NCBI GenBank assembly: GCA_958295715.1
Contig: OY282371.1
Coordinates: forward strand, 1,471,697-1,535,696
Direction of reading: 5' to 3'
Length of the DNA stretch: 64,000 bases
Source of the DNA: an uncultured Dehalococcoidia bacterium
GTDB taxonomy: Bacteria; Chloroflexota; Dehalococcoidia; Lucifugimonadales; GCA-2712585
Program-made: the position numbers and the translations under genes
Notes under the pieces: model-generated
What the model was told of the DNA's origin: nothing
What the model saw: the letters and a program-made list of their open reading frames with translations, nothing else
Databases searched by the model: none
Shown: positions 2,175 through 43,060 of the stretch, piece after piece
How the letters are laid out: every line of letters begins with the position of its first letter
Position numbering within the stretch: position 1 is the first letter of the stretch

Positions 2175-2560
2175 TGCTCCGTCATTCCCGTTTTTCCTTC
2201 TCGTCATTCCCGCGCAGGCGGGAATCCATCCCCTCTTAACGTTGCGCCGGGTCAACCGCGCCACGGCGCGCCCATTTCCGTCATCCGCCCTCTTATCTGT
2301 CATTCCCGCGCAGGCGGGAATCCATCCCCTCTTGACGTTGCGCCGGGCCAACCGCGCCACGGCGCGCCCATTTTTGTCATTCCCGCGCAGGCGGGAATCC
2401 AGGAAGGCCACGACGCAGAACCAACGCTCCAAACTCCGGCGTCACACGTAGGTGCGCCCCTCACGCGGGTCTGCCCTTAACGGGACCGCCTCTTACCTCA
2501 CGGAGCGCCGTTGCTCTGTCGCAACGAAAGTAAGAAAGATGGATTCCCGCCTTCGCGGGA
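2175..2560. repeat. Cluster of REP-like hairpin repeats (core GTCATTCCCGCGCAGGCGGGAAT)
   Basis: Full cores start near 2203, 2299 and 2376, each with a shared flank (GGAATCCATCCCCTCTT.ACGTTGCGCCGGG.CAACCGCGCCACGGCGCGCCCATTT). The last copy (2541-2560) is cut off by the IS110 insertion. Confidence 0.9.
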
Positions 2561-2586
2561 GTATCCCTGTTAGAAGTCAAGGGGGG

Positions 2587-3528
2587 TTAGGTGGTTGAGG
2601 AGCGCTGTTCCGTCCAGGGGGCGCCCCGCCGGGCCACCGCGTTGAGTTGCAGCAGCAGCTTGCGCATGGCCGCCACTATGGCCACCTTGCCCGGCTTACC
2701 CCCTCGCTTCAGACGCTCGTAGAACCTCTTCAGTTCCCCCTCCCACCGGACCCCCGACAGCGCGGCCATGTACAGGGCCCGGCGCACCCACCAACGCCCC
2801 CCACGGATGCTCCGCCGCCCCTGCTGTCGCCCACTGTCCCGGGACCAGGGGGCCAGCCCCACCAGGGAGGTCAGGGCCCGCCCGTTTATCACTCCCAACT
2901 CCGGCAGGTGGGCTATCAGGACGCAGGCCGTCAGTTCTCCCACCCCACGCACGCTCTGATACAGGGCCGCCCGCTCCCCCAGACTGGCGTGGCTCGAAAG
3001 CATCCTGCCCCGCTCCCGGTCCAGTTCAGTTATCTCCTCCTCCAGCCATCCAATGTGCCGCCTCACCGACCTCTTCATCCTCTCGTTCAGCCCCTTCTCC
3101 AGCCGGTTCCGTTCCTGCACCCTCTGTTCCACCAACTGCCGGCGGCGGACCATCAGCTCTTTCAAGGCCTCAGTCTCCTCATCCAGCCCGCCGGCGCCGG
3201 TCAACTCAAAGGCCATCCCATACCGGCTCAACACCTTGGCGTCGAGTCCGTCGGTCTTGGCCTCCTTCCCCAAGGCTCGCGCCAAGGCCCGCACCCGGTT
3301 GGGGTGGGCCACTTCCACCTCCACGCCACCCTTCCTCAGCCCTTTCACCATCCCGCGCTCGTATCCACCGGTGGCCTCGCAGACCGCCCGGGAGCATTCC
3401 TGGGTCCTCAGCCATTCCAGCAGTTCCTCCATCCCCTCCGGGGTGTTGGCGAATCCCTTCACCGCCCCCTCGCACACCGACACCGCCAATTCCCTCTTGC
3501 TCACGTCTATTCCCGCCGCCACTCTCAT
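2587..3528 (-). CDS. IS110 family transposase (DEDD-type recombinase)
   Basis: 313 aa. The N-terminus, MRVAAGIDVSKRELAVSV, and the C-terminal block, LTSLVGLAPWSRDSGRQQGRRSIRGGR...RRALYMAA, are typical of IS110/IS116/IS902 transposases. Confidence 0.9.
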   Translation of the reverse strand: MRVAAGIDVSKRELAVSVCEGAVKGFANTPEGMEELLEWLRTQECSRAVCEATGGYERGMVKGLRKGGVEVEVAHPNRVRALARALGKEAKTDGLDAKVLSRYGMAFELTGAGGLDEETEALKELMVRRRQLVEQRVQERNRLEKGLNERMKRSVRRHIGWLEEEITELDRERGRMLSSHASLGERAALYQSVRGVGELTACVLIAHLPELGVINGRALTSLVGLAPWSRDSGRQQGRRSIRGGRWWVRRALYMAALSGVRWEGELKRFYERLKRGGKPGKVAIVAAMRKLLLQLNAVARRGAPWTEQRSSTT

Positions 3529-3750
3529 CTCCCGGCCTCCTCTGCTATACTGTCGTCGCCCTCCGCACTTGCAAATGCGGGCCTCTACGCCCGTGTATCC
3601 CTTCGGAGCGGCTTGACGATGGCGCGGGGGGTGTCTTACTCCCGCACGGCGCAGCGGAACCTCAGGGGACCGCTCGCCCTATGACGGCCGACGCGCCCCC
3701 CGCGCCAGTCTTGTAGATTGGCCTCCCTACAAGACTTTTTCAACATACAA
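3529..3750 (-). ncRNA. Candidate IS110 bridge/guide RNA region (5' non-coding end of the IS)
   Basis: 222 nt of non-coding DNA lie between the transposase start and the IS end, where IS110-group elements encode their bridge RNA. It contains ATGACGG (3681-3687) and CGCGGG (3623-3628), which match the sequences immediately flanking the insertion point. It also has a 9-bp hairpin, GTCTTGTAG/CTACAAGAC, at 3709-3736. This is an inference only. Confidence 0.25.
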
Positions 3751-4030
3751 ATGACGGATAGGGGGCGGGAATGCGGATGGGGTGGGCAGAAGCCCCCAAC
3801 GCAGAATCAACGCTCCTCAAAACTAAAGTGGGCGCACGCGCCCTTCCCGCCTGCGCGGGAATGACGGGAGGGGGGCGCGCATCCCGCAGGGGGCGGCTGG
3901 CGCGCCCGCCGGAGATGGCGCGCGGCTGAGGGGAGGCGTCTATGTGGGGCTGGTTTTGCCGTGCGGCCTTCCTGGATTCCCGCCTACGCGGGAATGACGG
4001 GAAGGAAAAACGGGAATGACGGATAAGAGA
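3751..4030. repeat. Cluster of REP-like hairpin repeats
   Basis: Cores at about 3844-3866 and 3974-4000, plus half copies. The flank modules AGAATCAACGCTC and GGGCGCACGCGCCC are also present. Confidence 0.9.
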
Positions 4031-4151: not shown

Positions 4152-5798
4152 ATGCGCGGCAACACCGCTTTGGCCAACGTCCTGCGAATCGAAGGCGCCG
4201 AGTACCTCTTCTGCTACCCGGCCAACCCCCTCATAGAGGCCGCCGCCATCGCGGGCATACGGCCCATAATGTCCAGGACCGAGCGGACCACCGTCAACAT
4301 GGCCGACGGATACGCCCGGGTGTCCAACGGGCGGCGTCCCGCCGTGGTGGTCACCCAGTCCGGCCCCGGCATTGAGAACGCCTACGGCGGCGTGGCCCAC
4401 GCCTACGCCGAGTCGACGCCCATCCTCGTCCTGCCCGGCGGCCCGGCCAGGGACAAGACCTTCCAACCCCCCAACTTCCCCGCCGTGGAGGCGTACCGCA
4501 GCGTCGTAAAGTGGGGCGCCCAGATAAATTCGGCCTCCCGCGTCCCGGAGATGATGCGCCGCGCCTACACCTTCCTGCGCTCCGGCAGGCCGGGGCCCGT
4601 CATGCTGGAGGTCCCCGCCGACGTGGGGGAGGAGGAGATATCGGAGGAGGCCTTCGACTACAGGCCGGTGAAGGGCCTTAGGAGCGCCGGCGACCCCGAC
4701 GACGTGGCCGCCGCCGTGCGGGCCCTGCTGGCCGCCAAGCGCCCCGTGATATACGCCGGCCAGGGTGTCCTCTGGGCCGAGGCCTCCGCGGAGCTGCGCG
4801 AGTTCGCCGAGCTTGCCAACGCCCCCGTTATGACCACCAACACCGGCAAGAGCGCCTTCCCCGAAACCCACCCCCTGTCCCTGGGCGTCGGCGCCAACAC
4901 CATGACCAAACCCGTCAGCCACTTCCTGGGCCGGGCCGACCTGGTCTTTGGCGTCGGATGCAGCTTCACCACCAACCTGGCCTCCGTGGGGATACCGGTT
5001 GGAAAGACCTTGGTCCAGTGCGTAGTGGACGCCCGCGACCTCAACAAGGAGCAGCAGATACACCACGCCGTTACCGGCGACGCCCGCCTCACGCTGGCCC
5101 AGCTAATTGAAGAGCTCCGCAGGCAGGCGGGGAGCGATGGCCGGAAGGGGGAGGGCGGCGTGGCCGACGAGGTCCGCCGCGTGAAGGACGAGTGGCTGGA
5201 GGAGTGGATGCCCCTCCTGACCTCCGACGAGGTCCCCATCAATCCCTACCGGGTCATCCGGGAGTTGATGAACGCCCTCGACCCGGCTGAGACCATAGTC
5301 ACCCACGACTCTGGGCACCCCCGCGACCAGACCATCCCCTTCTACCAGGCCGTAACGCCCCGCGGGTATCTGGGCTGGGGAAACTCCAGCCAACTGGGGT
5401 ACTCCATGGGCCTAAGCATGGGGGCCAAGCTGGCCGCGCCGGACAAGACGGTGGTCGCCATCATGGGCGACGCGGCCATCGGCATGGCGGGAATGGACAT
5501 TGAAACCGCCGCGCGGCTGAACATCCCCATCCTCCTCATCGTGCTAAACAACCACGTGCTCAGCGGCTACTCCAAGAACTACCCGGTGGCCGCCGAGCGC
5601 TTCGGCTTCACCAACCTGTACGGCGACTACGCCGACCTGGCCAAGGCCCTCGGCGCCCACGGTGAGCGCGTCGCAGACCCCAAAGATATTGGGCCGGCCA
5701 TAGGCCGCGCCAGGGAGGCCATGAAGTCGGGCCACCCCGCGCTGCTGGAGTTTATGACCAAGGAGGAAAACTCCCTCTCCCGGTATCCCCTCGGCTAG
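4152..5798 (+). CDS. Thiamine-diphosphate-dependent enzyme (acetolactate synthase large-subunit-like family)
   Basis: ThDP-binding motif GDAAIGMAGMDIETAARLNIPILLIVLNN, and an N-terminus typical of the pyrimidine-binding domain. AGGAGG lies 8 nt before the ATG at 4152. The track start at 4095 lies in the repeat region. Confidence 0.8.
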   Translation: MRGNTALANVLRIEGAEYLFCYPANPLIEAAAIAGIRPIMSRTERTTVNMADGYARVSNGRRPAVVVTQSGPGIENAYGGVAHAYAESTPILVLPGGPARDKTFQPPNFPAVEAYRSVVKWGAQINSASRVPEMMRRAYTFLRSGRPGPVMLEVPADVGEEEISEEAFDYRPVKGLRSAGDPDDVAAAVRALLAAKRPVIYAGQGVLWAEASAELREFAELANAPVMTTNTGKSAFPETHPLSLGVGANTMTKPVSHFLGRADLVFGVGCSFTTNLASVGIPVGKTLVQCVVDARDLNKEQQIHHAVTGDARLTLAQLIEELRRQAGSDGRKGEGGVADEVRRVKDEWLEEWMPLLTSDEVPINPYRVIRELMNALDPAETIVTHDSGHPRDQTIPFYQAVTPRGYLGWGNSSQLGYSMGLSMGAKLAAPDKTVVAIMGDAAIGMAGMDIETAARLNIPILLIVLNNHVLSGYSKNYPVAAERFGFTNLYGDYADLAKALGAHGERVADPKDIGPAIGRAREAMKSGHPALLEFMTKEENSLSRYPLG

Positions 5799-33799: not shown

Positions 33800-34450
33800 G
33801 CTCCCCCTTCCGTCATTCCCGCGCAGGCGGGAAGGGCGCGTGCGCCCACTTAGTTTTGGGGAGGGTTGGTTCGGGGTTGGAGGCTTCTTTAATTCCCGTC
33901 CCTTCTTCTTCCGTCATTCCCGCGAAGGCGGGAATCCAGGAAGGCCCCAACAGAGAACCAACCCCTAAAACCCCCGGCATCAACCCGGTGGCGCGTCCCT
34001 AGTGGATGCTGCCCCCTTGCCTCCCTTTTCCGTCATTCCCGCGCAGGCGGGAATCCATCCCCTCCTCACTGCATCCCGCGGCAACCCGGAAATCCCGCGC
34101 CACGGAACCAACGCCTAAAAACCCCGGCATCAACCCGGTGGCGCGTCCCTAGTGGATGCTGCCCCCTTGCCTCCCTTTTCCGTCATTCCCGCGCAGGCGG
34201 GAATCCAGGAAGGCCCCAACAGAGAACCAACGCCTAAAAACCCCTAACGCCACCCGAAGAGACGCCCTTAATGCGGGTCTGGCCGTAACGGGACTCGCCC
34301 TTGCCGAGACGGGAAGATGGATTCCCGCCTTCGCGGGAATGACGGATAAGAGGGGCGAAAGCGGGGAATCCATGCCCCCAGCGCAGAACCAGCCCTCCTC
34401 AAAACAAAGTGGGCGCTCGCGCCCTTCCCGCCTTCGCGGGAATGACGGAA
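33800..34450. repeat. REP-like hairpin cluster splitting carA from carB
   Basis: Six cores near 33811, 33912, 34031, 34181, 34319 and 34425. A ~92-bp direct duplication is also present at 33965-34056 and 34115-34206. Confidence 0.9.
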
Positions 34451-42455: not shown

Positions 42456-42599
42456 GAATGACGGGAAAGGAGGGGAGCTAGATGAGGGAATTAGGATTCC
42501 TGCCCCACCGGTTTGAAGGAAAGAAAGTTGAATACTTGTGTACACTCTATCTGTCATCCCCGAACTCGCCCCATCCGCATTCCCGCTCTCTCCCTATCC

Positions 42600-43060
42600 G
42601 TCATTCCCGTGAAAACGGGAATCCAGGAAGGCTTCGATTATGAAACAGCCCTGCGTATACATACTCGCAAGCGAGCGCAACGGAACCCTTTATGTGGGCG
42701 TAACCTCTAACTTGGCGCCGCGAGTTTGGGAGCACAAGAACGACCTGGCAGAGGGTTTCATCAAGCGGTACGGCGTCCACAGGCTGGTCTGGTTTGAGGG
42801 GCACGAAACAATGGAGGGCGCCATTACGAGGGAGAAGGCGTTGAAGCAGTGGAACAGGACATGGAAGCTCGAGTTGATTGAGGGGAGTAATCCGAAGTGG
42901 AAGGACCTATATGAGGGGTTGGGGTGAGGCGCCGCCCCGCTCCGCTACGGTGCCCGCCTCCGCCCTCCCGCCACCTAGCGGTAAGGGGAGAGCAGGGCGC
43001 GGTCTATGGGGTCAGTTCTGCGACGTGGCCTTCCTGGATTCCCGTTTTCACGGGAATGAC
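42600..43060 (+). mobile_element. Candidate TIR-bounded cassette: GIY-YIG nuclease gene flanked by exact 32-nt inverted copies of a variant REP hairpin
   Basis: 42600-42631 reads GTCATTCCCGTGAAAACGGGAATCCAGGAAGG. Its exact reverse complement is at 43029-43060, and again at 43120-43151. Confidence 0.45.
42640..42927 (+). CDS. GIY-YIG nuclease family protein (UPF0213/YhbQ-like)
   Basis: CVYILASERNGTLYVGVTSNLAPRVWEHK...REKALKQW is the GIY-(x10)-YVG / R / E pattern of small GIY-YIG proteins. The gene is AT-richer than its surroundings. Confidence 0.85.
   Translation: MKQPCVYILASERNGTLYVGVTSNLAPRVWEHKNDLAEGFIKRYGVHRLVWFEGHETMEGAITREKALKQWNRTWKLELIEGSNPKWKDLYEGLG

What the first reader, a model, noticed from the sequence alone, without database searches (positions are those of the whole stretch)
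2541..3760. IS110-family element inserted precisely within a REP-like hairpin
Deleting 2561-3750 joins GGATTCCCGCCTTCGCGGGA to ATGACGGATA. The result recreates a repeat copy identical over 30 nt to the intact copy at 34319-34348. The IS therefore split the 3' arm of the hairpin, between GCGGGA and ATGAC.

Established: several IS110-family members are known to target REP sequences. This is a clean example linking the hairpin family to a site-specific recombinase. It also gives exact IS ends, target and donor sequences.
Basis: partly seen in the sequence, partly recalled or inferred. Interest (0 to 1): 0.6.

Follow-up and report, generated by a model that had tools for sequence, protein, structure and literature searches.

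The report
Bridge-RNA IS110 element targeting hairpin repeats
A 1.19-kb jumping gene of the IS110 family sits at exactly the same base of the same hairpin repeat in every copy, because the guide ("bridge") RNA it encodes matches that repeat; this is a clean new example of a mechanism published in 2024.

Summary
Window 2561-3750 is a 1190-bp IS110-group element with its transposase on the minus strand. Removing it rebuilds a 30-nt hairpin copy identical to 34319-34348.

The genome holds four intact copies plus one truncated remnant. All lie at the same nucleotide, in the same orientation, of the same hairpin, with unrelated outer flanks.

The 222-nt 5' non-coding end encodes a canonical bridge RNA. 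Its target loop matches CCGTCA-TT-CCCGC and its donor loop matches the RE-LE junction AGGGATA-CT-TGTAT. Across 24 guide classes from relatives in other genomes, guides track their own flanks (11.1 of 13 matches versus 6.1 for non-cognate pairs; 0 of 20,000 permutations reach this). Twenty-six of 48 RNA pairs show compensatory changes. The circle junction would form a TTGACT-N17-TATGTT promoter.

- The hairpin is the Neisseria-type NTS/dRS3 (Ssn-nuclease) repeat, not a RAYT-type REP.
- The donor core is the canonical CT, but the target core is TT, read through a G·T wobble.

Earlier notes of this scan had already flagged the hairpin family and the possible bridge RNA on this genome.

Verdict: a new member of a known kind, of modest interest.

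The parts
2541..2560 (-). Right half of the split target, read in transposase orientation (TCCCGCGAAGGCGGGAATCC). The hairpin TCCCGC-GAAG-GCGGGA stays intact next to the right end. Base 2560 is one copy of the invariant core T9.
   Evidence: The right target guide (RTG) is complementary to T8-T9-CCCGC.
2561..3750 (-). IS110-group insertion sequence, 1190 bp, with no terminal inverted repeats.
   Evidence: Four copies share these exact ends. No end-to-end inverted repeat was found.
2561..2586 (-). Right end (RE), 26 nt: ..CCCCCCTTGACTTCTAACAGGGATAC. It carries the left donor AGGGATA plus core C8 (2561-2568).
   Evidence: The RE end ..ACAC[A/G]GATAC is conserved in about 80 relatives.
2575..2580 (-). 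-35 hexamer TTGACT of the promoter that exists only across the RE-LE circle junction.
   Evidence: TTGACT-N17-TATGTT in the joined ends. TTGAC is conserved at this place in relatives. No sigma-70-like site was found in the integrated state.
2587..3528 (-). Transposase / bridge recombinase gene, 313 aa plus stop. Catalytic residues D8, E51, D93, D96 and S232.
   Evidence: Homologous to the solved bridge recombinases ISCro4 (9t56, 1.4e-37) and IS621 (8wt6, 1.2e-35), with the catalytic residues aligned. These residues are invariant in 30 homologues.
3529..3750 (-). Left end (LE), a 222-nt non-coding region that encodes the bridge RNA.
   Evidence: -101.9 kcal/mol, z-score -3.4. The architecture is conserved in 31 sequences.
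3742..3747 (-). -10 hexamer TATGTT. It overlaps the right donor TGTAT.
   Evidence: TTGTATG is conserved at the LE start of relatives.
3707..3736 (-). 5' stem-loop of the bridge RNA, an 11-bp stem. It is the likely start of the transcript.
   Evidence: alignment columns 17-44, many compensatory pairs; repeat I8.
3680..3688 (-). Left target guide (LTG) GCCGUCAUA, the same sense as target positions 1-9 (TCCGTCATT). It matches 7 of 9 positions here and 8 of 9 in copies C and D.
3637..3645 (-). Right target guide (RTG) GCGGGAG, which pairs with target top strand T8-T9-CCCGC, using G·T at T8. It is followed by the handshake bases UA, which are complementary to donor A7 and T6.
3595..3602 (-). Left donor guide (LDG) AGGGAUAC, identical to donor positions 1-8 (the RE end).
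3566..3576 (-). Right donor guide (RDG) AU-UU-G-CAAG. CAAG pairs with C8-T9-T-G, G·T pairs at T12 and AU pairs with A13-T14. It is followed by the handshake bases UG, which are complementary to target A7 and C6.
   Evidence: This is the same discontinuous pattern as IS621 A157-G165 (PMC11208158).
3751..3764 (-). Left half of the split target (..TATCCGTCAT in transposase orientation). This is the conserved, orientation-giving CGTCAT flank of the NTS-type hairpin.
   Evidence: NTS motif: CGTCATTCCCGCGMAVGCGGGAATCYRG.

Best explanation
This is an active or recently active IS110-group insertion sequence. Its own bridge RNA directs it into one position of an abundant hairpin repeat, the NTS/dRS3 type with the motif CGTCAT-TCCCGCG-N-GCGGGAATCC.

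Proposed steps:
1. Excision joins the right and left ends. This creates a sigma-70 promoter, TTGACT-N17-TATGTT, across the junction. (The junction sequence is shown; expression is inferred.)
2. That promoter transcribes an RNA of about 185 nt from the left end. The RNA folds into a 5' hairpin plus two stem/internal-loop modules. (The fold and its conservation are shown; transcription is inferred.)
3. The donor loop pairs with the junction AGGGATA-CT-TGTAT. The target loop pairs with TCCGTCA-TT-CCCGC. The left guide reads the CGTCAT flank that gives the hairpin its orientation. The right guide reads the first arm of the stem. (Complementarity and covariation are shown.)
4. A tetramer of the DEDD/Ser recombinase cuts the top strands just 3' of the core T9 and exchanges them, as in IS621. 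This leaves target T8-T9 at the left junction and donor C8-T9 at the right junction, which is exactly what all copies show. (The junctions are shown; the chemistry is inferred from IS621 structures.)

With about 750 matching intergenic sites, the repeat family offers the element many harmless landing places.
For: Same site and orientation in 4 copies plus 1 remnant, with unrelated outer flanks.

Transposase: it reaches the curated cut-off of NF033542, 'IS110 family RNA-guided transposase'. It is homologous to IS621 and ISCro4, with D8, E51, D93, D96 and S232 conserved.

Layout: the 222-nt non-coding region lies upstream of the gene and only 26 nt lie downstream. This is the IS110-group layout (PMC11187229).

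RNA structure: the consensus of 31 related left ends gives a 5' stem-loop plus two stem/internal-loop/stem-loop modules. Twenty-six of 48 pairs show compensatory changes, and the guide segments sit in the unpaired loops.

Guide-target covariation across 24 guide classes: cognate pairs match at 11.1 of 13 positions, non-cognate pairs at 6.1, and 0 of 20,000 permutations reach the observed total. For example, relatives whose stems read TCCGGC, TCCGAG or TTCGAG carry right target guides GCCGGAG, CUCGGAG or CUCGAAG.

Guide lengths and positions reproduce IS621: a 9-nt LTG through T9, an 8-nt LDG through C8, RTG and RDG both ending in G opposite position 8, the RDG pattern AU/UU/G/CAAG, and handshake bases.

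Promoter: a junction promoter is present and no promoter-like site exists in the integrated state. This is a known family trait.

Recent activity: copies A and B are identical. Copies C and D differ from them by 30 and 34 positions (about 2.5-2.9%), yet keep intact ORFs and, apart from LTG position 9, identical guides.
Against: No expression or mobility data were available.

Rfam 15 has no family that matches the RNA, so the RNA assignment rests on my own alignment.

The relatives used for covariation are phylogenetically related, and the permutation test ignores that.

The target core (TT) differs from the donor core (CT). In the two identical copies, LTG position 9 is A opposite the invariant T9. 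IS621 screens found core pairing strongly preferred.

A contribution of the hairpin structure itself cannot be separated from base pairing using sequence alone.
Confidence: 0.9

Rival explanations
1. Dual recognition. Base pairing with the bridge RNA is necessary, but the hairpin (a stem-loop that can extrude immediately 3' of the core) is a second determinant read by the recombinase as a structure, as proposed for ISPpu10. This adds to the best explanation; it does not replace it.
For: A 2026 preprint reports that a target-encoded stem-loop gates ISPpu10 insertion (10.64898/2026.03.19.712850). Seventeen of 29 representative relatives insert at GTCAT|T next to hairpin-type repeats.
Against: One clade of 11 relatives inserts at non-hairpin sequences (for example CCACAA-CT-TCTGA and GCGA-CT-CCCAA) that still match their guides. 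A hairpin is therefore not required in this lineage. Also, in ISPpu10 the stem-loop is a 5' extension, whereas here it lies on the 3' side.
Confidence: 0.25
2. Protein-only, structure- or sequence-specific recognition of the hairpin. The matches between the non-coding end and the target would then be coincidental or a by-product of the element living among these repeats.
For: Before 2024 this was the usual reading of REP-targeting IS110 elements (PMC1525189). The genome is crowded with the motif, so short matches to it are common.
Against: Guides change together with targets across 24 classes, including non-repeat targets. The matching segments sit exactly in the two internal loops of a conserved fold. 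The donor loop matches the element's own ends, which crowding by repeats cannot explain.
Confidence: 0.03
3. The copies were not inserted independently. They would have spread by segmental duplication or by homologous recombination between repeats, or the hairpin halves would be part of a larger mobile unit.
For: Repeats flank every copy. Some relatives in other genomes have flanks that do not match their guides (L091, L093, L096, L098), which suggests rearrangement between copies does occur.
Against: In this genome, sequence beyond about 10-25 nt of repeat on each side is unrelated among the four copies. There are 768 hairpins against 4-5 IS copies. Homology between copies ends exactly at the IS ends.
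Confidence: 0.02

Closest known systems
IS621 of E. coli (IS110 family; bridge RNA; PMC11208160, PMC11208158)
   Same: DEDD plus Ser recombinase (E 1.2e-35 to 8wt6). Long 5' non-coding end. 5' stem-loop followed by target and donor loops. The same guide lengths and registers. The same discontinuous right donor guide. CT donor core. A junction promoter. The natural target is an abundant extragenic palindromic repeat.
   Different: Only distant protein similarity. The closest database proteins to this element reach just 62% identity, so it is a new IS. The right target guide is 7 nt rather than 4. The natural target core is TT, not CT, and is read by G·T wobble. The target is the NTS/dRS3 hairpin, not an E. 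coli REP. The host is an uncultured Dehalococcoidia-type Chloroflexota genome.
ISPpu9 / ISPpu10 / ISPa11 (Pseudomonas IS110 elements in REPs; PMC1525189, PMC12288879, 10.64898/2026.03.19.712850)
   Same: All copies are inserted at one fixed position of a REP-like palindrome. Hundreds of potential sites exist per genome but only a handful are occupied.
   Different: Those elements make a perfect 2-bp direct repeat. Here the two junction dinucleotides differ (TT versus CT). The repeat families are different, and those are RAYT-type REPs.
IS110-type transposase (PivNM/Irg) of Neisseria filamentous prophages Nf1/MDA, which integrate into dRS3 (PMC7058167)
   Same: The same repeat family (ATTCCC-N8-GGGAAT) is used as the landing site by an IS110-family enzyme.
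   Different: That element is a prophage of about 8 kb, not a minimal IS. It is reported to use a conserved CT motif of the dRS3 subtype ATTCCCRCCTRCGCGGRAAK. Here the crossover lies at the outer edge of the stem, between the CGTCAT flank and the stem. I did not compare the proteins directly.
NTS / Ssn-related motif repeats with SsnA GIY-YIG single-strand nuclease (PMC11893778)
   Same: The target here fits CGTCATTCCCGCGMAVGCGGGAATCYRG. The genome has 127 exact copies and 451 with at most 1 mismatch. A 95-aa GIY-YIG gene at 42640-42927 is bracketed by inverted hairpin copies.
   Different: That system concerns the origin and use of the repeats, not this IS. The IS merely exploits them. In doing so it separates the CGTCAT flank, which the paper says is crucial for SsnA, from its hairpin.

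Membership tests
IS110 family (IS110 group) | N-terminal DEDD (RuvC-like) domain and C-terminal Transposase_20 domain with a catalytic serine. | tested here: met
   PF01548 at 5e-25 and PF02371 at 3e-15. NF033542 at 198.5 bits against a cut-off of 140. D8, E51, D93, D96 and S232 align with the IS621 catalytic residues and are invariant in 30 homologues.
IS110 family (IS110 group) | No terminal or subterminal inverted repeats, and the long non-coding region lies upstream of tnp (IS1111 has it downstream, with subterminal repeats). | tested here: met
   222 nt upstream against 26 nt downstream. No inverted repeat between the ends. The criterion is taken from PMC11187229.
IS110 family (IS110 group) | Site-specific insertion centred on a short core shared by the target and the RE-LE junction. 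| tested here: met
   Five of 5 insertions are at one position. The shared T9 is invariant in all relatives. Position 8 is C in the donor and T in this target. The dinucleotide is therefore not identical, a partial departure from the norm.
IS110 family (IS110 group) | The circular intermediate reconstitutes a promoter across the RE-LE junction. | tested here: inconclusive
   The joined ends give TTGACT-N17-TATGTT. Both hexamers are conserved in relatives. No such site exists in the integrated state.
Bridge RNA (IS110 bRNA) | 5' stem-loop, then two stem/internal-loop/stem-loop modules. | tested here: met
   RNAalifold on 31 sequences gives 48 pairs, 26 of them with compensatory changes. The single-sequence fold has a z-score of -3.4.
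Bridge RNA (IS110 bRNA) | The first loop carries LTG (same sense as the left target plus core) and RTG (complement of core plus right target). The second loop carries LDG and RDG for the donor. Guides covary with the DNA. | tested here: met
   Guide and flank table. Cognate pairs match at 11.1 of 13 positions against 6.1 for non-cognate pairs, and 0 of 20,000 permutations reach the observed total.
Bridge RNA (IS110 bRNA) | The RNA is expressed, is bound by the recombinase and is required for recombination. | not testable with these tools
   No RNA-seq or read access. Rfam has no such family.
REP sensu stricto (RAYT-associated) | A cognate RAYT (Y1 transposase, PF01797) is present in the genome. 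| tested here: not met
   No PF01797 match in the 96.6%-complete genome, while 6 of 14 control genomes gave matches.
NTS / dRS3 / Ssn-related motif repeats | Oriented motif CGTCATTCCCGCGMAVGCGGGAATCYRG containing ATTCCC-N8-GGGAAT, in hundreds of copies. | tested here: met
   127 exact copies and 451 with at most 1 mismatch. The dRS3 pattern is counted 1370 times over both strands, which is about 685 sites.
NTS / dRS3 / Ssn-related motif repeats | A small single-domain GIY-YIG (ssnA-like) gene flanked by the repeats. | tested here: inconclusive
   A 95-aa ORF at 42640-42927 matches GIY-YIG at 2e-15. It is bracketed by inverted hairpin copies. Direct homology to SsnA was not tested: there was no informative hit in the solved structures and none above cut-off in NCBIfam.

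The most novel reading that the evidence does not exclude
A sublineage of IS110 elements, spread over Chloroflexota, Latescibacterota and Nitrospirota, may be specialised on Ssn-type (NTS/SRM) hairpin repeats. The left guide would stay fixed on the conserved GTCAT flank while the right guide tracks each genome's stem variant. These elements would systematically recombine a TT target core with a CT donor core, through a G·T wobble at the right guides plus a matching U in the left guide. This would be a natural case of non-identical cores. It fits a top-strand-defined (copy-out) transposition logic and would relax a design rule for bridge recombinases. Each insertion also uncouples the Ssn recognition flank from its hairpin.
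Probability: 0.4. Interest if true: 0.45.

Novelty: new member of a known kind. Interest (0 to 1): 0.3.

Why it matters
The finding gives a fully dissected natural bridge-RNA element from an uncultured Chloroflexota lineage. It defines exact ends, a 14-nt target, a 14-nt donor and all four guides plus handshake bases. It comes with a panel of about 24 naturally reprogrammed relatives.

Two points go slightly beyond the textbook case:
- The landing site is the Neisseria-type NTS/dRS3 hairpin now linked to Ssn nucleases. Together with the Neisseria prophage enzymes, this makes at least two separate IS110-family elements that use this repeat family.
- The element naturally pairs a TT target core with a CT donor core. 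People who engineer bridge recombinases may find this useful.

Neither point changes the known mechanism.

Tried and rejected
- The search for related loci with the single protein found no relative. An alignment of homologues was needed.
- Rfam 15 gave no hit on the element. The only match was a sub-threshold nhaA-I hit at 4434-4469, outside it.
- The RAYT search was negative, so I dropped the 'REP sensu stricto' label.
I rejected it after comparing guide registers with the IS621 structure and with the relatives. Three things place the core at Y8-T9: LTG position 9 is U in 27 of 31 sequences; the first flank base and the first LE base are both T; and L066 and L113 fit only with a CT core one base further on.
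- Regex parsing mis-called the left end of the L048 class (a duplicated TTGTATG) and the right target guide of L104 and L105. The first was corrected by hand and the second excluded from the test.
- The solved-structure and NCBIfam searches with the GIY-YIG ORF gave nothing informative.
Full report
**1. Observation**

Reading the window confirms GGATTCCCGCCTTCGCGGGA at 2541-2560 and ATGACGGATA at 3751-3760. Joined, they are identical over 30 nt to 34319-34348, and the similarity continues into the neighbouring repeat modules. The 30-mer has 7 intact copies in the genome.

The interval 2561-3750 carries one long ORF on the minus strand (3528..2587, 313 aa). It matches Pfam DEDD_Tnp_IS110 and Transposase_20. 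It also reaches the curated cut-off of NCBIfam NF033542, 'IS110 family RNA-guided transposase'.

**2.

The window lies in a 2.40-Mb, two-contig assembly with 64% G+C. It holds four full copies of the element. Two are identical, and two differ from those by 30 and 34 positions (about 2.5-2.9%). All four have intact 313-aa ORFs.

In all four, the flanks read GGATTCCCGCCT[T/G]CGCGGGA | IS | ATGACG[G/A]A in the same orientation. Sequence beyond the repeat is unrelated between copies. A fifth locus (C1:449025) keeps only about 46 nt of the right end, again abutting GGATTCCCGCCTGCGCGGGA.

The core hairpin TTCCCGC-N4-GCGGGAA occurs 768 times on the chromosome and never on the 55-kb second contig. The 13-nt site CCGTCATTCCCGC occurs 750 times. 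Random insertion cannot explain four independent hits on one position and strand: about 6e-16 by my arithmetic.

**3. What the hairpin is**

No RAYT (PF01797) is present in the genome. Earlier notes of this scan pointed to the Neisseria NTS/dRS3 family and the Ssn nuclease paper, so I checked that lead.

- The published motif is CGTCATTCCCGCGMAVGCGGGAATCYRG (PMC11893778).
- It occurs 127 times exactly and 451 times with at most 1 mismatch.
- A 95-aa GIY-YIG ORF at 42640-42927 is bracketed by inverted hairpin copies. This is the NTS-ssnA-NTS layout described in that paper.
- Direct homology to SsnA was not established.

In transposase orientation the target reads ..TCCGTCAT|TCCCGCGAAGGCGGGAATCC. 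The IS therefore separates the orientation-giving CGTCAT flank from the stem.

**4. Anatomy of the element (transposase orientation)**

- The left end starts TTGTATGTTGAAAAAG.
- The right end finishes ..CCCCCCTTGACTTCTAACAGGGATAC.
- There are no terminal inverted repeats.
- 222 nt of non-coding sequence precede the gene and 26 nt follow it. This is the IS110-group layout, not the IS1111 layout (PMC11187229).
- Joining the ends gives TTGACT-N17-TATGTT.
- The integrated region has no sigma-70-like site.
- A promoter rebuilt across the circle junction is a described family trait (PMC11208160).

**5. The bridge RNA**

The 222-nt left end folds well below shuffled controls. To test conservation I collected relatives:
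- an element with six copies in a genome of the same genus (G007, 53% aa identity);
- one element in a genome of the same order (G039);
- 80 loci from Dehalococcoidia, other Chloroflexota, Latescibacterota, Binatia and Nitrospirales MAGs.

The best database proteins are only 62% identical, so this is a new IS.

The left ends align over a conserved scaffold. RNAalifold on 31 sequences gives a 5' stem-loop plus two stem/internal-loop/stem-loop modules. There are 48 pairs, and 26 of them show compensatory changes.

The variable segments sit in the internal loops. In this element they are (coordinates):

| Guide | Sequence | Window coordinates |
|---|---|---|
| LTG | GCCGUCAUA | 3688-3680 |
| RTG | GCGGGAG, then UA | 3645-3637 |
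| LDG | AGGGAUAC | 3602-3595 |
| RDG | AUUUGCAAG, then UG | 3576-3566 |

**6. Guide-DNA correspondence**

The registers follow the IS621 structure (PMC11208158):
- a 9-nt LTG on the bottom strand opposite positions 1-9;
- an 8-nt LDG opposite positions 1-8;
- RTG and RDG both ending in a G opposite position 8;
- an RDG of the form AU / two flipped U / G·T / four pairs.

The element fits this scheme position by position. The target is T-C-C-G-T-C-A7-T8-T9-C-C-C-G-C. The donor is A-G-G-G-A-T-A7-C8-T9-T-G-T-A-T. The bases after RTG (UA) complement donor A7 and T6. Those after RDG (UG) complement target A7 and C6. These behave as the 'handshake' bases described for IS621.

Across 24 distinct guide classes, cognate guide-flank pairs match at 11.1 of 13 positions. 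Non-cognate pairs match at 6.1. None of 20,000 permutations reaches the observed total. Right guides track the stem variants:

| Target stem | Right target guide |
|---|---|
| TCCCGC | GCGGGAG |
| TCCGGC | GCCGGAG |
| TCCGAG | CUCGGAG |
| TTCGAG | CUCGAAG |
| TTGACG (non-hairpin) | CGUCAAG |

. The classes are related to one another, so the permutation count overstates independence. The direction and size of the effect are nevertheless clear.

**7. The core**

Comparison with relatives showed three things:
- LTG position 9 is U in 27 of 31 sequences.
- The first base of every right flank and of every left end is T.
- Two relatives (L066, L113) fit only if the core lies one base further on.

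The core is therefore Y8-T9. The donor core is the canonical CT. The target core is CT in the non-hairpin classes and TT in all GTCAT-type classes, including this one. In those classes the LTG carries U8 and the invariant G of the RTG pairs with T8 as a wobble.

IS621 cuts the top strands after T9. With the same cut here, the left junction keeps target T8-T9 and the right junction keeps donor C8-T9, as observed in every copy. Positions 6-7 already differ between donor and target in IS621, whose authors invoke repair of mismatched bases. A difference at position 8 extends that heteroduplex by only one base. It also fits a recent report that IS621 excises mainly one strand (10.64898/2026.08.31.748434).

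**8. Distribution**

In a maximum-likelihood tree of 29 representative transposases, the 17 GTCAT-type elements are spread over several branches and three phyla. The non-hairpin targets form one clade of 11, plus one single row. The tree is midpoint-rooted only, and the sampling is limited to the best 80 hits.

This suggests a lineage long associated with Ssn-type hairpins. The left guide would be held on the conserved flank while the right guide follows local stem variants. This remains an inference.

**9. Comparison with the known**

The element works like IS621 and passes every sequence-level membership test for the IS110 group and for bridge RNAs. Expression and activity are untested.

REP targeting by IS110 elements is well documented: IS621, ISPa11, ISPpu9, ISPpu10 and ISRm19. 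IS110-type enzymes of Neisseria filamentous prophages integrate into dRS3, reportedly at a CT motif of a dRS3 subtype. A 2026 preprint adds a structural role for the target stem-loop in ISPpu10. I cannot exclude that here. The non-hairpin clade shows it is not obligatory in this lineage.

**10. Verdict**

The element is a new, apparently active member of a known kind. Its target specificity is explained by a self-encoded bridge RNA.

The only unusual points are the target family (NTS/dRS3) and the natural TT/CT core pair.

The circle junction, empty sites and the RNA itself therefore remain to be shown.

Noticed in passing
L005 (G000:C1:449025-449070): A truncated remnant of the right end of the IS, about 46 nt and roughly 84% identical. 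It abuts GGATTCCCGCCTGCGCGGGA at the same position, and the rest of the element is deleted.
   Followed up: partly
window 3680 (LTG position 9): The two identical copies (A and B, presumably the most recent) carry A where copies C and D and 27 of 31 relatives carry U, opposite the invariant core T9. This natural guide-core mismatch is apparently tolerated.
   Followed up: partly
G000 contig C2 (55,210 bp): The second contig (63% G+C) has no copy of the hairpin, the NTS motif or the IS, against 768 hairpins on the chromosome. It may be a plasmid, a recent arrival or a binning error.
   Followed up: no
window 42598-43060: A 95-aa GIY-YIG ORF (42640-42927) is bracketed by inverted copies of a variant hairpin (CCGTCATTCCCGTGAAAACGGGAATCC ... 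GGATTCCCGTTTTCACGGGAATGAC). This is the NTS-ssnA-NTS layout.
   Followed up: partly
L009, L026 and four more loci in G007 (same genus): Six identical copies of a relative with 53% aa identity are inserted at ATGTCAT|TCTGAGGAGGCCCC, a different repeated sequence. Its right guide is UUCAGAG and its LDG pairs with the donor partly through G·T wobbles (ACGGAUGC against ACAGATAC).
   Followed up: partly
L039 (Dehalococcoidia MAG CBDANP01): A copy whose bridge RNA has an internal deletion that fuses the target loop to the donor loop. It has extra hairpin-flank sequence upstream and is probably a decayed copy.
   Followed up: no
L048-L059, L082 (MAG OZ253540): This element class has a 7-nt tandem duplication of TTGTATG at the left end and an N-terminally extended ORF. 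At least ten copies are inserted at CTGTCAT|TGCGAGG.
   Followed up: no
L091, L093, L095, L096, L098 (MAG CBDCTG01): These copies have one or both flanks that do not match their own guides. For example, the right flank of L098 (TCCCAAG) is the target of a different IS110 class (L077). This suggests recombination between copies or classes, or half-matched insertions.
   Followed up: no
window 2300-2400 and 3800-4000: The IS lies in a 2-kb intergenic stretch made of several hairpin copies with repeated spacer modules, a NIME-like array. No gene is interrupted by the insertion.
   Followed up: no
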